Assembly: GCF_003018255.1 (NCBI RefSeq)
Contig: NZ_CP027441.1
Length of the DNA: 64,000 bases
Source: Escherichia coli
GTDB lineage: Bacteria > Pseudomonadota > Gammaproteobacteria > Enterobacterales > Enterobacteriaceae
Direction: 5' to 3' (one strand)
Position numbers: made by a program
Shown here: positions 18,001-24,000 of the stretch, piece by piece
How positions within the stretch are numbered: position 1 is the stretch's first letter
How the letters are laid out: every line of letters starts with the position of its first letter

Positions 18001-21000
18001 TCTGCTCAAAGGTCACAGGAGCACCTCCGTTCCATGATGTAAACGTGACACAGCTTATTGTTATTGATTATTATTATCATGCTTTGATTATGTTATCACG
18101 CACCGGTACACGATAACAATAAAGGAGAAACCAGATGAAACTGGATATATCTGTAAAGTATTTACTGAAGAGCCTGATACCAAGCCTCATTATTCTTACA
18201 GTTTTTTATCTGGGATGGAAAGATAGCCAGGAAAATGCAAGAATGTTTTATGCGTTCATCGGATGCATTATCAGTGCCATTACTTTTCCTTTTTCAATGA
18301 GGATAATACAGAAAATGGTAATAAGGTTTACAGGGAAAGAATTCTGGCAAAAAGACTTCTTTACAAATCCAGTTGGCGGAAGCTTAACTGCAATATTTGA
18401 ATTATTCTGTTTCGTTATATCAGTTCCTGTGGTTGCCATTTACTTAATTTTTATATTCTGCAAAGCCCTTTCAGGAAAATGAAAGGGCATCATTATGTGT
18501 CAGATACCAATAAGTTTATTGACCTGCTCAATAAACTTATCATTAACAAACGCACTCACAGCCGCCATAATAATTGCAAAACCCAGAATACCTACAGGGG
18601 TTCCCAGCATGACGGAAAACGTCCATGCTGTAACTGCTGAAGCAGCTCTTCCTGCTGCCAGTGATTCAAGTTTTACAAAAAATGGACGCCAGTTGTCCGT
18701 TTTTACAGCCTTTTGTAACTCCACAGCAACATCATAACGATCAATAACTTTTCCGGTAAAACCAAATGCCTTACTGAACAGCTTAAAATTCTCCGCCATA
18801 TGGACCTGATTAATAGCTTCCAGGGCTTTAGAAATGGCCATGCGATCTTGTATGCTATATTTCTTGTTCAGATTATTACGGAATTTATCAAAAGCGTTCA
18901 GTGCATCATCCACACTCTTAATCTGTTTCCCTTGAGATACAGAAGCCAGCTCCTTAGCAAGTTCGGATGCTTGTTTACCGAACTCATCATATATCGTTCT
19001 GTAGAAATCAGAGGTGAGTTTTATGGCATCCTTTATCATATTTATTTCATCCCTTTTTCTTTTCTCTTCAGCTATTTTCTGATTTATGTCAGCAAGCTGG
19101 CTACGGATATTCTCTTTTTCCTTCAACAGGGCATTAAGAGCATCATTTGCATGCTTTTGTTCATTTGTTCTGGCACTGACGTTATTTCTCGCCGAATTTA
19201 CCGCAGATTCAGCAGAGGTGATTTTATTTCTGGCATCAAGCAATCGTTGCCGTAACTTATCCCATTCAGCAACTTCAGCATTATAAATTTTCTTGTCACC
19301 TTCCACATCCTCTGTCACCACCGGATTCCGGTCATTCAGAATATTGCGTTTATAGTCCAGACCGGAATGGGTCAGAAGATAATTCAGGTTTGCACGGTTA
19401 TCGATGACCGCGCTGGTTGTGATTTTTATCGTACCGGCAAATCTCGGATCACCACTCACAACAATAGAATGATTTGTTGATGAACGCCCCGGGAATTTTT
19501 CAGGGGAAACTATCGTTTTGCCGTCAGGCGTGTTTTTCTGTTGCGTCAGCTGTTGTTCAGCTCTGGTTAATGCATTACGGGCCGTCTTAAGCGATTCCGT
19601 CACCGAACTGAGTTTATTCCGGGCCTCTGAAATGGCCCTGTCATTCCGTGTCTGCTGCCCGAGCAGACGGGCCTGTTGTGCATCAAGAACGGCAAGGGCT
19701 GCCCCGCCATTTTTTTCCAGCTCTGACAACCGCGTGTCCAGAATACCTTTTCTGTGCTCGTATTCAGCAAGCATATCAGCGGCCTTCTTGTCTGCGTTCT
19801 GCGCATCCTTCTGCCGTTTTTCAGCCTGTTCGATTAACGACCTGGCCTCGCGGGGAGATATACGAAGAGAATCAGCATCAGCAAACAGCATCCGGCTCTC
19901 TGTATGCAGCCGGAGGGCATCATATCCGGCGATTTCAGTACGGAATCCGTATTCTCTCAGCTCTGCCTGCAGGAGTCTGAACTCCTGTCGTGTAATATCA
20001 GCGGCATCTGCGTTTCCGGCACGGAGTGTTTTCAGTGTGTTTTCATCTTTTTCCCTTGCAGCAATTGCCGCAGAAAGGCGTTTTCCGGCTTCAGTACGCT
20101 TATTCTCATTCTCTTTCTGCTGCACGCTGAGCGTGTTTTTGTACGCTGTGATTTCCTTGTCCCTTTTTTCGATATCACTTCGGGTTGGGGAATCATCGAC
20201 CCACTCGTTTCCGCCCCAGATGGTTTTGTTCCCGAAGGAACTCCATGCAGGCGGGGTACCATGAAAAACATCGACACGTGGAGGGTTTACATAAATATCA
20301 ACGGCCATAATTTCATGGCCATCTGAATCATACCCCAGCGATTCTGCACCGGGATTTGTAATACGTACAGGGTCAGACATTCGGTATCTCCTTCATCCTC
20401 TGAGGAAAACAAATGAATTAACTGCTTACGTATATGGATACATATACAGTATTAATTTATTAAGGAGAAAATGGCATGTCAAGATTTAATGATAGTGATT
20501 ATCATTAACATGAAGTGGTATTATACCGTTCAGAAAGCCTGCTGACGCTGTGGCAGCATCACAGTCTGGGTATTCTCTGGTGCAATACAAAAACCGGACT
20601 TTCCCGTAACAACAGACAATGTTACGGGAAAAGTTACAGAACTGAGCCACAAAATATCTCAGTACCTGAGATGCATAAAAACACCGTACATATGTTTCTC
20701 AAAAGGGGGATGATCGTTATCCAGCCATTTCGGTGGATCGGTATGCAGAACACCAATCTGCTTCATGCCGGTATGCTGCCTGGATTTTCTCGCGCAGTAA
20801 TCACTGTCTTCATATCCCATCGTTTCGATGACCACTCTGGCCGTCTTTCCGTCAGGAGCCCTTGCTGTGACAATGAAATCCGGCAGGACATATTTCTTTT
20901 CACCATTAACATAAACTTCTGTATCAAACAGGGGCCTTTCCAGACTTAATTCCGGCGTACCAGGCTTTCTTTTAAGCCAGCTGGCCACATTCAGAAGAGC

Positions 21001-24000
21001 AGTGAGCGTGTTTCGTTCCAGTTTGCTATCCACAGGCACCGGACATGTCAGTTGATAAAGAGCATGAGCATACCCTTCACTGCAGATGATTCTGCCATCG
21101 GCACTCCGGCAAAAAGTAAGAATAACCCAGTAAGGGGGACGTATTCCGCCCTGCGCTTCACCATTAATACTGATCCCCCGCACAGGTCTGATGACCTGAA
21201 TATTACCGTTCGCCCAGTGAATTTCCACAGCATCACGACAGATGTGCTGCGCCATAAAAATCTGAAAGAACATATGTTTTCTTCTGGCAGGCCAGTGTCG
21301 TTCTGAATTCTCCAGCGTTTCCATTAACCGCTCCTGAGACCTTTCAGACATTCTCTGCCAGGCGCATGTCGATGTAATCCATAAACGGTTTCAGCTTAAC
21401 CATTTTGTGGCGGGTCTTTCTGGCTGGCGGTTCAGGGTATTTGAGGTAGCGTCTGACCGTCCGTTCAGAGCAACCAATCTGAGTCGCAATATCGACAATG
21501 TACGCGCCCTGCTGGCGCATTTGCTTTATCATGTAAAAGTCCTCTCTGCTCAGCATGTTGATGTCCTTTCTGGTGTGAGAACCTTAAGGAAACAACATGT
21601 TGGGTGGAGCGGACAATCCAAATGGTGAATTACCGTCTTATATCACTGGCGCTGACAGCCTCCACCCTCTGGCTGACAAAAGCGCGTTACCAGTACCTCC
21701 TCCGGCTTGATGCACAGCCTCTGCCGGAGTCGAGGATCGCCTTGCTCCTGCACCTGGTATCTGATAACGGTGCATCATTAGAGGAGGTTGAGGCCCAACC
21801 GTACGGTAAGAGGAAAATTATCGTCTGAAAAATCGATTGGGAGACAAGATCGTCCGTTAAGTGACGATTTTTGATTGAAAAGACTCCGATTTGAGGGCCT
21901 TTGATATATCAGACAGCTACATCACTGGCATACGTTTCCGCTCCATTGACCTTCAGTCCCCCCAATAACTATTAATTGAACGCCCCGCGTAATTGAGGTT
22001 GTGCAAATATTTGTTACAATATAACATCACAAAACATAACATATGTTTTCGAATGTATATGAACGTAATCAAAACTGCTATTTGTACATTAATCACACTA
22101 CCTGTGGGACTACAGGCCGCGACCAGTCATTCTTCTTCGATGACTAAAGATACAATAACCGTTGTTGCGACAGGAAATCAGAACACGGTATTTGAAACGC
22201 CGTCGATGGTCAGTGTCGTCACGAATGACACACCGTGGAGTAAGAATGCGGTCACATCAGCCGGTATGCTGAGAGGTGTTGCGGGTCTCAGCCAGACTGG
22301 TGCAGGACGGACCAATGGGCAGACCTTTAATCTACGCGGCTATGACAAAAGCGGGGTACTTGTTCTTGTTGATGGTGTCCGTCAACTCAGTGACATGGCA
22401 AAAAGCAGTGGCACTTATCTGGATCCAGCACTCGTCAAACGTATCGAAGTTGTCCGCGGACCAAATTCCAGTCTGTACGGCAGTGGCGGACTGGGAGGTG
22501 TTGTGGACTTCAGAACTGCCGATGCAGCAGATTTTCTTCCCCCCGGAGAGACAAACGGTGTAAGTCTGTGGGGAAATATCGCCAGTGGTGACCACAGTAC
22601 AGGCTCTGGGCTTACCTGGTTCGGTAAAACCGAAAAAACAGATGCGCTCCTTTCTGTCATTATGCGTAAAAGAGGAAGTATCTATCAGAGTGATGGTGAG
22701 CGTGCACCTAACAAGGAAAAACCTGCAGCCCTGTTTGCGAAAGGCTCTGTCAGTATTACAGACAGTAACAAAGCAGGTGCCAGCTTACGCCTCTACCGGA
22801 ATAGCACCACTGAACCGGGCAATCCAACTCTGACACATGGTGACAGTGGCCTGCGTGACAGAAAAACAGCACAGAATGACATGCAGTTCTGGTACCAGTA
22901 CGCCCCTGCAGATAACAGTCTCATCAATGTAAAATCGACACTATATCTCAGTGATATCACCGTCAAGACAAACGGCCACAACAAAACAGCAGAATGGCGA
23001 AACAACAGAACCTCCGGTGTTAATGTTGTCAACAGGAGTCATTCTCTGATTTTTCCGGGAGCCCATCAGTTAAGTTATGGCGCTGAATATTACCGTCAGC
23101 AGCAGAAGCCGGAAGGCACTGCCACACTATATCCGGAAGGACACATTGACTTTACATCATTGTATTTCCAGGATGAAATGACTATGGAAAGCTACCCGGT
23201 TAACATTATCGTCGGTTCCCGTTATGACCGATACAATAGCTTCAATGCCCGTGCCGGAGAACTAAACGCTGAACGTCTGTCCCCCAGAGCAGCGATGTCT
23301 GTCTCACCGACAGACTGGCTGATGATGTACGGCTCCATATCCTCTGCATTCCGGGCCCCCACAATGGCAGAAATGTACAGGGATGATGTACATTTTTACC
23401 GCAAGGGCAAACCTAATTACTGGGTTCCTAACCTTAATCTGAAACCTGAAAATAACACCACCCGTGAGATTGGCGCAGGTATTCAACTGGACAGCCTGCT
23501 TACAGACAATGACCGACTGCAGTTGAAAGGCGGATATTTCGGAACGGATGCCAGAAACTATATTGCCACGCGCGTGGATATGAAACGGATGCGTTCTTAT
23601 TCTTATAATGTATCCCGGGCCCGTATCTGGGGATGGGATATTCAGGGAAATTACCAGTCTGATTATGTTGACTGGATGCTTTCTTATAACCGGACGGAAA
23701 GTATGGATGCCAGCAGCAGGGAATGGCTGGGCTCCGGCAATCCTGACACACTTATCAGTGACATCAGCATACCTGTTGGTCATAGAGGCGTTTATGCAGG
23801 ATGGCGTGCTGAACTTTCGGCACCAGCCACGCATGTGAAAAAAGGCGACCCCTGTCAGGATGGCTATGCCATACATTCCTTTTCACTGTCTTATAAGCCT
23901 GTAAGTGTTAAAGGCTTTGAGGCGTCAGTAACTCTGGATAATGCCTTCAACAAGCTTGCCATGAATGGCAAAGGTGTGCCGCTTTCAGGCAGAACCGTCA

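What the first reader, a model, noticed from the sequence alone, without database searches (positions are those of the whole stretch)
20659..21324. Uncharacterised 221-aa protein beside the colicin promoter, abutting a truncated IS21-family fragment
The ORF has a strong RBS and a possible terminator but no family I can assign. A segment YVLPDFIV...VVIETMGYE loosely resembles PD-(D/E)XK nuclease motifs. The truncated istA fragment is cut exactly at its start. Single-gene nucleases in accessory plasmid regions are frequently phage-defence or abortive-infection effectors.
Basis: inference. Interest (0 to 1): 0.55.

Follow-up and report, generated by a model that had tools for sequence, protein, structure and literature searches.

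The report
Truncated yagA pseudogene beside colicin gene
The "uncharacterised 221-aa protein" is the surviving back half of yagA, a well-known IncI-plasmid backbone gene of unknown function, whose front half was deleted up to an insertion-sequence fragment. It is an already-annotated gene remnant, not a new defence gene.

Summary
The ORF is real: minus strand, stop at 20659, ATG at 21324 (221 aa) or 21351 (230 aa). It is not a complete gene. It equals residues 219-448 of the 448-aa IncI1 backbone protein YagA, at 99.1-99.6% identity to most intact copies. It keeps YagA's native downstream terminator hairpin and colicin promoter.

RefSeq already annotates this stretch as a yagA pseudogene "missing N-terminus" next to an IS21-family istA pseudogene "missing C-terminus". 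The same 221-aa product is "hypothetical protein LH0108" of plasmid pO113.

The istA/yagA junction lies inside a 9-bp sequence shared by both parents (GAATGTCTG, 21353-21345). This points to a microhomology-mediated deletion, not a transposition end. The junction is 100% identical in 29 of 5426 complete E. coli genomes, all on pO113-type plasmids.

The parts
20659..21351 (-). yagA remnant: codons 219-448 plus stop of the 448-aa IncI1 backbone protein YagA (5'-truncated pseudogene; LH0108 of pO113)
   Evidence: ORF list. RefSeq annotation 'yagA, incomplete, missing N-terminus'. Alignment to intact yagA of p9134dAT. tblastn 99.1-99.6% identity to most intact copies. Exact 221-aa product in databases as LH0108/Q3ZU29.
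21322..21335 (-).
   Evidence: Sequence. Identical in intact yagA. Gene callers start several database fragments at residue 228 (P0146, P0152, P0153, P0159).
21345..21353 (-). Recombination junction: 9-bp GAATGTCTG present in both intact istA and intact yagA (11 of 12 bases identical when extended)
   Evidence: Three-way alignment of the window, an intact IS21-like element and intact yagA (alignment A2).
21345..21657 (-). Left-end fragment of an IS21-family element: terminal TGTCAGCGCC..., 5' leader and istA codons 1 to about 68-70
   Evidence: megablast to istA-bearing records. Intact copy L004. Alignment A2.
21344..21556 (-). istA' truncated ORF, 70 aa, HTH part only; its stop TGA overlaps the ATG at 21351
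   Evidence: ORF list. RefSeq 'helix-turn-helix domain-containing protein, missing C-terminus'. PHROG transposase N-terminus hits, E 1e-32 to 1.6e-23.
20599..20632 (-). Terminator-like hairpin (13-bp stem, T-run) downstream of the yagA stop; native to the yagA-colicin intergenic region
   Evidence: Scan. Region near-identical in the intact IncI plasmid.
20454..20482 (-). Colicin promoter-like site (TTGACA, 17 nt, TAAATT) upstream of the colicin gene
   Evidence: Scan. Conserved in p9134dAT.
18500..20380 (-). Colicin Ia/Ib-type gene (626 aa), the native downstream neighbour of yagA
   Evidence: ORF list. Annotations.
21658..21773 (+). Fragment of an IncI/K/Z-plasmid NusG-family gene (its 3' end) abutting the IS left end
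   Evidence: megablast hits H90-H93. Annotation of L011.

Best explanation
The ORF is a 5'-truncated pseudogene of yagA, the conserved IncI1/ColIb-P9 backbone gene that sits immediately upstream of the colicin Ia/Ib gene. In an ancestor of the pO113-type STEC megaplasmids, an IS21-family element lay upstream, inserted next to a NusG-family gene. A later deletion joined the interior of istA (about codon 68) to the interior of yagA (codon 218/219) through a shared 9-bp GAATGTCTG. That deletion removed the rest of the IS, the intervening backbone (fopA/yafB side) and the first 654 bp of yagA. What remains encodes the middle beta-rich domain and the C-terminal PD-(D/E)XK-like domain of YagA. It lacks the N-terminal Zn-type CxC...Hx3C module and the helical region. 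It most likely has no function. The apparent start codons and RBS are internal coding sequence, and the 'terminator' and neighbouring promoter are the native yagA-colicin intergenic region. Shown: identity, truncation point, microhomology, lineage distribution, predicted fold. Inferred: the order of events, non-functionality, and that intact YagA is a nuclease.
For: The window is 100% identical to pO104_H21 and 99.8% to pO113. RefSeq annotates adjacent yagA ('missing N-terminus') and HTH ('missing C-terminus') pseudogenes. Intact YagA is 448 aa and sits directly upstream of the colicin gene in p9134dAT. The window ORF equals residues 219-448, with nucleotide identity starting exactly at GAATGTCTG. 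The intact IS21-like element shares the same 9 bp and then diverges. 1183 plasmid records cover at least 80% of the ORF, and most hold full yagA. The junction is 100% identical in 29 of 5426 complete genomes, all on 159-176-kb plasmids. The 221-aa product is LH0108/Q3ZU29. Invariant C60, C62, H91 and C95 lie in the deleted part. The literature calls yagA a conserved backbone ORF of unknown function and a frequent insertion or deletion site (PMC3817090, PMC4541600, PMC8004404, PMC7491321).
Against: The remnant reading frame is still open in the two plasmids read in full (this window and pO113). It has a good SD-like motif and an arrangement (istA' stop overlapping an ATG) that could allow translation from IS-borne transcription. 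The fragment alone models confidently (pLDDT 91.5). It retains all conserved residues of the nuclease-like core: E330, D376, E394, K407. So a residual activity cannot be excluded from sequence alone. The intact frame is also expected for a recent, clonally inherited scar: only 6 nucleotide differences from an intact copy, 4 synonymous and 2 not.
Confidence: 0.92

Rival explanations
1. The truncated ORF is a functional neo-gene. It would be transcribed from the IS21 left end, translated by coupling to the 70-aa istA' ORF or from the AGGAG/ATG at 21324, and would yield a free PD-(D/E)XK-type nuclease module that acts as a toxin or defence/exclusion effector.
For: Open frame in this window and in pO113. 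SD-like AGGAG with 6-nt spacing and an ATGTCTGA stop/start overlap. Confident stand-alone model. Conserved core residues retained.
Against: It lacks 218 N-terminal residues, including the Cys/His module invariant across the family. No match to PADLOC or PHROGs. The junction is a single clonal event in one plasmid lineage, 100% identical in all 29 genomes. NCBI's pipeline treats it as a pseudogene. yagA is often disrupted in nature without reported consequence (PMC4541600, PMC8004404, PMC3817090). No promoter-like site was found upstream on the minus strand between 21351 and 22100.
Confidence: 0.05
2. The ORF is the tail of an IS-encoded protein, that is, part of the IS21-family element (the alternative the first reader named).
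For: It directly abuts an istA fragment and overlaps its stop.
Against: The intact IS21-like element diverges from the window immediately after the 9-bp junction. The ORF is 99% identical to yagA in plasmids where no IS is present. PHROG transposase models hit only the 70-aa istA' ORF and not the 230-aa ORF.
Confidence: 0.01
3. The junction was made directly by transposition, with the IS inserting into yagA, and not by a later deletion.
For: yagA is a known insertion hot spot (PMC4541600).
Against: The junction is at an internal IS position (istA about codon 68), not at an inverted-repeat terminus. The IS terminus (TGTCAGCGCC, 21657) instead abuts a NusG-family gene fragment. A 9-bp perfect overlap between the two parental sequences is not expected from transposition.
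Confidence: 0.02

Closest known systems
YagA of IncI1 plasmids (ColIb-P9/R64/pCol1B9; Pfam PF27227 'Endonuc-like_C'; Swiss-Prot P04481 'Uncharacterized protein in cib 5' region')
   Same: 99.1-99.6% amino-acid identity to most intact copies over residues 219-448. Same position and orientation immediately upstream of the colicin Ia/Ib gene, with the same intergenic hairpin and promoter.
   Different: Residues 1-218 (the CxC...Hx3C module and helical region) are missing, and the native upstream neighbours (fopA/yafB) are replaced by an IS21-family fragment.
DUF1173 (PF06666), described by Laganeckas et al. 2011 (PMC3045609) as an N-terminal CysXCysXnHisX3-5Cys motif plus a C-terminal PD-(D/E)XK-related domain linked to DUF790
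   Same: Intact YagA has the same architecture: C60-x-C62...H91-x3-C95, a nuclease-like C-terminus and weak DUF790 hits. The fragment model matches AFDB entries labelled DUF1173 at E 1e-12 to 1e-25 and TMq 0.66-0.87 over about 230 columns.
   Different: No PF06666 HMM hit for YagA or for 25 distant relatives in the local Pfam-A. That paper reports DUF1173 as lacking a conserved active-site signature, whereas the YagA branch keeps invariant E330, D376, E394 and K407.
Bax1 / DUF790 endonuclease (XPB-associated; PDB 6p66, 6p4w)
   Different: The similarity is limited to about 40 residues at sequence level. There is no XPB partner gene, and the N-terminal domains and the hosts (plasmids of Proteobacteria versus archaea) differ.
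TnsA, Vsr, Hjc, NgoMIV, HamA and Can2/VC1899 nuclease domains (PD-(D/E)XK fold)
   Different: Sequence identity is only 6-18%. The lysine is not in the canonical (D/E)xK position. No partner proteins of those systems are encoded nearby.

Membership tests
YagA (IncI1 backbone protein, PF27227 Endonuc-like_C) | High sequence identity to YagA and synteny immediately upstream of the colicin Ia/Ib gene | tested here: met
   99.1-99.6% identity to most intact copies over residues 219-448. Identical intergenic region and colicin neighbour. RefSeq label yagA.
YagA (IncI1 backbone protein, PF27227 Endonuc-like_C) | Full-length 440-450-aa protein with the N-terminal invariant C60, C62, H91, C95 module | tested here: not met
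   The window retains only residues 219-448. The invariant Cys/His columns lie in the deleted part. It is therefore a pseudogene remnant of the family, not an intact member.
PD-(D/E)XK nuclease superfamily | Alpha-beta-beta-beta-alpha-beta core fold | tested here: met
PD-(D/E)XK nuclease superfamily | Catalytic signature D...(D/E)-x-K | tested here: inconclusive
   P-D376 and E394 are invariant, but the third position is E-T-M, not E-x-K. An invariant K407 sits on the next helix, as in the aligned Bax1 motif.
PD-(D/E)XK nuclease superfamily | Metal-dependent nuclease activity | not testable with these tools
   Needs biochemistry. No paper in the searched library reports an activity for YagA or DUF1173.
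DUF1173 (PF06666) | Match to the PF06666 profile HMM | tested here: not met
   No PF06666 hit for the fragment, for full YagA or for 25 distant relatives.
DUF1173 (PF06666) | Architecture (N-terminal CxCxnHx3-5C plus C-terminal PD-(D/E)XK-like domain) and structural similarity | tested here: met
   Met for the intact parent protein: motif, description in PMC3045609. The fragment model matches AFDB proteins named DUF1173 at E down to 8.8e-25. The window ORF itself lacks the N-terminal half.
Known anti-phage defence systems (PADLOC-DB v2) | Match to any defence-protein HMM | tested here: not met
   0 families for both the fragment and full-length YagA at E<=1. No PHROG match.
IS21-family IstA transposase | Colinearity with IstA beyond the junction | tested here: not met
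   The intact IS diverges from the window right after GAATGTCTG. Transposase HMMs hit only the 70-aa istA' ORF.

The most novel reading that the evidence does not exclude
The remnant could be expressed from IS21-borne transcription, by translational coupling to istA' or from the internal AGGAG/ATG228. It would give a YagA C-terminal two-domain module (beta-rich domain plus Bax1-like PD-(D/E)XK core) freed from its Zn-type N-terminal module. That module might retain nuclease activity and give pO113-type plasmids an exclusion, defence or toxicity phenotype. More broadly, intact YagA/DUF1173 proteins may be an uncharacterised class of mobile-element nucleases.
Probability: 0.05. Interest if true: 0.45.

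Novelty: already known. Interest (0 to 1): 0.12.

Why it matters
It matters mainly as a correction. An apparently orphan "nuclease-like" gene beside the colicin promoter is a scar of plasmid mosaicism, already flagged as a pseudogene in RefSeq, so it should not be followed up as a candidate defence gene. Two smaller points remain. The clean 9-bp microhomology junction is a lineage marker for pO113-type STEC plasmids and an example of an IS-associated illegitimate deletion. The intact parent family (YagA/DUF1173) combines a Zn-type Cys/His module with a Bax1-like PD-(D/E)XK core, is carried by over a thousand enterobacterial plasmid records in PLSDB, and is still functionally uncharacterised. 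It would be a reasonable target for experiments, but on an intact copy, not this one.

Tried and rejected
- Local Pfam-A gave only a sub-threshold DUF790 hit for the fragment and for full YagA.
- NCBIfam gave only a weak partial hit to a restriction-endonuclease model (E 0.025 and 0.066, against a cutoff of 800 bits).
- PADLOC and PHROGs gave nothing for the ORF.
- Rfam gave nothing in 20300-22100.
- phmmer against PDB sequences gave nothing meaningful; the profile version gave only Bax1 at E 0.064.
- A second large homologue search with the distant-member profile added almost no new proteins (three truncated YagA copies) and no PF06666-labelled ones.
- Two Python attempts to BLAST the window against L002 failed because the locus file was not yet available. 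DNA alignment was used instead.
- The look-up of P0085 found no contig.
- dN/dS on the remnant was considered and dropped: only 6 substitutions against an intact copy.
- The idea that Met228 is a conserved internal start was not pursued. The AGGAG arises from Gln-Glu codons, and residue -4 varies among homologues.
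Full report
**Observation.**
The ORF is on the minus strand. Its stop codon is at 20659-20661. The mechanical ORF begins at ATG 21351 (230 aa).

- AGGAG (21335-21331) lies 6 nt upstream of ATG 21324.
- A 13-bp-stem hairpin with a T-run lies at 20632-20599.
- A 70-aa IS21-family istA N-terminal ORF (21344-21556, minus) abuts the ORF. Its TGA overlaps ATG 21351, reading ATGTCTGA.
- The 626-aa colicin Ia/Ib-type gene (18500-20380, minus) and a promoter-like site (20482-20454) follow downstream.

**Identity.**
The region is 100% identical to plasmid pO104_H21 (NZ_CP023542.1) and 99.8% identical to pO113. In RefSeq the stretch is annotated as two adjacent pseudogenes. One is "yagA, protein YagA, incomplete, missing N-terminus". 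The other is [quoted passage not shown].

tblastn of the ORF finds 1332 plasmid records. Of these, 1183 cover at least 80% of the ORF, mostly IncI-type conjugative plasmids, at 99.1-99.6% identity in most intact copies, annotated yagA. In p9134dAT the intact gene encodes 448 aa and sits directly upstream of the colicin gene. A ProQ/FinO gene (fopA/yafB) lies on its other side. The window ORF equals residues 219-448.

Nucleotide identity with intact yagA starts at GAATGTCTG. It continues through the stop codon, the hairpin and the colicin promoter into the colicin gene. The RBS and both start codons are therefore internal coding sequence of the parent gene. The terminator and promoter are the native intergenic region.

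The exact 221-aa product is in public databases as "hypothetical protein LH0108" (pO113) and UniRef Q3ZU29, seen on more than 900 contigs. A 216-aa fragment has been in Swiss-Prot as P04481, "Uncharacterized protein in cib 5' region".

**How the truncation arose.**
An intact IS21-like element (L004: istA 390 aa, istB 265 aa) was aligned with the window and with intact yagA.

- The window follows the IS from its terminus (TGTCAGCGCC..., window 21657) through istA to ...GCAGAGAATGTCTG.
- From there it follows yagA: ...GAATGTCTGAAAGGTCTC.
- Both parents contain GAATGTCTG (9 of 9; 11 of 12 with the next three bases).

The junction is therefore internal to the IS, not at an IS end, and sits in a microhomology. 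This is the signature of an illegitimate (microhomology-mediated) deletion, not of transposition. That mechanism is an inference.

The outer IS terminus abuts a 116-bp fragment of an IncI/K/Z NusG-family gene. The region is thus a mosaic of backbone scraps.

The junction is present, 100% identical, in 29 of 5426 complete E. coli genomes. All copies are on 159-176-kb plasmids, including those of O113:H21, O104:H21 and EH41. All carry the same two pseudogene labels. It is one inherited event. The ORF is intact and identical in pO113.

**What the parent protein is.**
Local Pfam-A, NCBIfam, PADLOC, PHROGs and PDB sequence searches give no significant family for the fragment or for full YagA. The precomputed Pfam label on homologues is PF27227 "Endonuc-like_C". 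The family has 531 representatives at 50% clustering.

Conserved residues:

- Across 43 close homologues the invariant residues include C60, C62, H91 and C95.
- Across 26 distant homologues C60, C62 and H91 stay invariant, together with S327, E330, R331, P358, D376, F377, E394, G397, Y403 and K407.

Structure:

- An AlphaFold model of full YagA has pLDDT 83.8 and pTM 0.79.
- The best Foldseek hit against PDB is TnsA, E 0.013.
- The family profile's best PDB sequence match is Bax1, E 0.064. It aligns PDF...IE-x-x-G...Y...K.
- DUF790, the Bax1 family, matches 5 of 26 members at E<=0.001.

Link to DUF1173: Laganeckas et al. 2011 (PMC3045609) described DUF1173 as roughly 400-aa proteins. They have an N-terminal CysXCysXnHisX3-5Cys motif and a C-terminal PD-(D/E)XK-related domain linked to DUF790. 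That is the YagA architecture. A model of the window's 230-aa product (pLDDT 91.5) matches AFDB proteins labelled DUF1173 at E 1e-12 to 9e-25 over its whole length. No PF06666 HMM hit was obtained.

It was also anticipated in the literature and in Pfam.

**Function.**
Papers that mention yagA call it a conserved IncI backbone ORF of unknown function (PMC7491321, PMC3817090). They also report it as a frequent site of insertions and deletions, such as ISEcp1-blaCTX-M-55, an ampicillin-resistance cassette and Tn21-related modules (PMC4541600, PMC8004404, PMC3817090). This argues that it is dispensable.

Homologues are single genes in several settings:

- next to plasmid Rep3/RepB/ParA genes (L003, L006, L008);
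- in an integrase island at smpB (L007);
- a few kb downstream of an AAA_15 plus DUF4435 gene pair (L009).

This shows mobile-element cargo. It is not enough to assign defence, maintenance or anything else.

**Verdict.**
The finding is a pseudogene remnant that is already annotated. The most likely state is non-functional. It lacks 218 residues, including the invariant Cys/His module, and it is a single clonal scar. No promoter-like site was found upstream on its strand. A residual activity cannot be strictly excluded, because the frame is open, the SD-like site and the istA' overlap exist, and the nuclease-like core is complete. I put that at about 5%. Novelty: already known. Interest: low.

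Noticed in passing
window 21345-21353 (minus strand): The istA/yagA junction lies in a perfect 9-bp sequence (GAATGTCTG) present in both parental genes. This is a signature of microhomology-mediated deletion and a potential lineage marker for pO113-type plasmids (29 of 5426 complete genomes).
   Followed up: yes
window 21344-21556 (minus strand): The istA remnant is an intact 70-aa ORF that encodes only the HTH part of the IS21-family transposase. Its stop overlaps the ATG of the yagA remnant (ATGTCTGA). A free HTH peptide could in principle bind IS21-family ends elsewhere in the cell.
   Followed up: no
window 21658-21773 (plus strand): A 116-bp fragment from the 3' end of an IncI/K/Z-plasmid NusG-family gene directly abuts the IS21-like terminus. 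The IS therefore originally sat in or beside that backbone gene, not in yagA.
   Followed up: partly
window 21993-24836 (plus strand): A TonB-dependent receptor (RefSeq CDS 1974 bp, about 657 aa; the mechanical ORF from TTG 21993 is 677 aa) plus a DUF4198 protein (263 aa) form a pair, followed by IS66-family genes. This is an accessory metal-uptake-like module that replaces the usual IncI yaf/fopA neighbourhood of yagA.
   Followed up: no
L006 881-2991; L008 2222-5936; L003 5350-8426: Intact YagA-family genes recur next to plasmid replication and partition genes (Rep3, RepB, ParA). In Pectobacterium the gene starts 48 bp after the rep gene on the same strand, which hints at a plasmid-maintenance-linked role.
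   Followed up: partly
L009 3201-9329: A YagA homologue lies about 2.8 kb downstream of an AAA_15 ATPase plus DUF4435 gene pair. To my knowledge that pairing resembles the PARIS defence system, so this may be a defence-island-like context.
   Followed up: no
one search hits P0146, P0152, P0153, P0159, P0174, P0259: Many database 'proteins' of this family begin exactly at residue 228. Gene callers repeatedly pick the internal AGGAG/ATG when yagA is broken or at a contig edge. Orphan YagA tails are therefore a recurrent annotation artefact.
   Followed up: partly
window 17059-17649 (plus strand): A 196-aa ORF rich in Arg, Ala and Leu lies beyond the colicin immunity gene. It is annotated only as a hypothetical protein and is conserved next to the immunity gene in IncI plasmids.
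   Followed up: no
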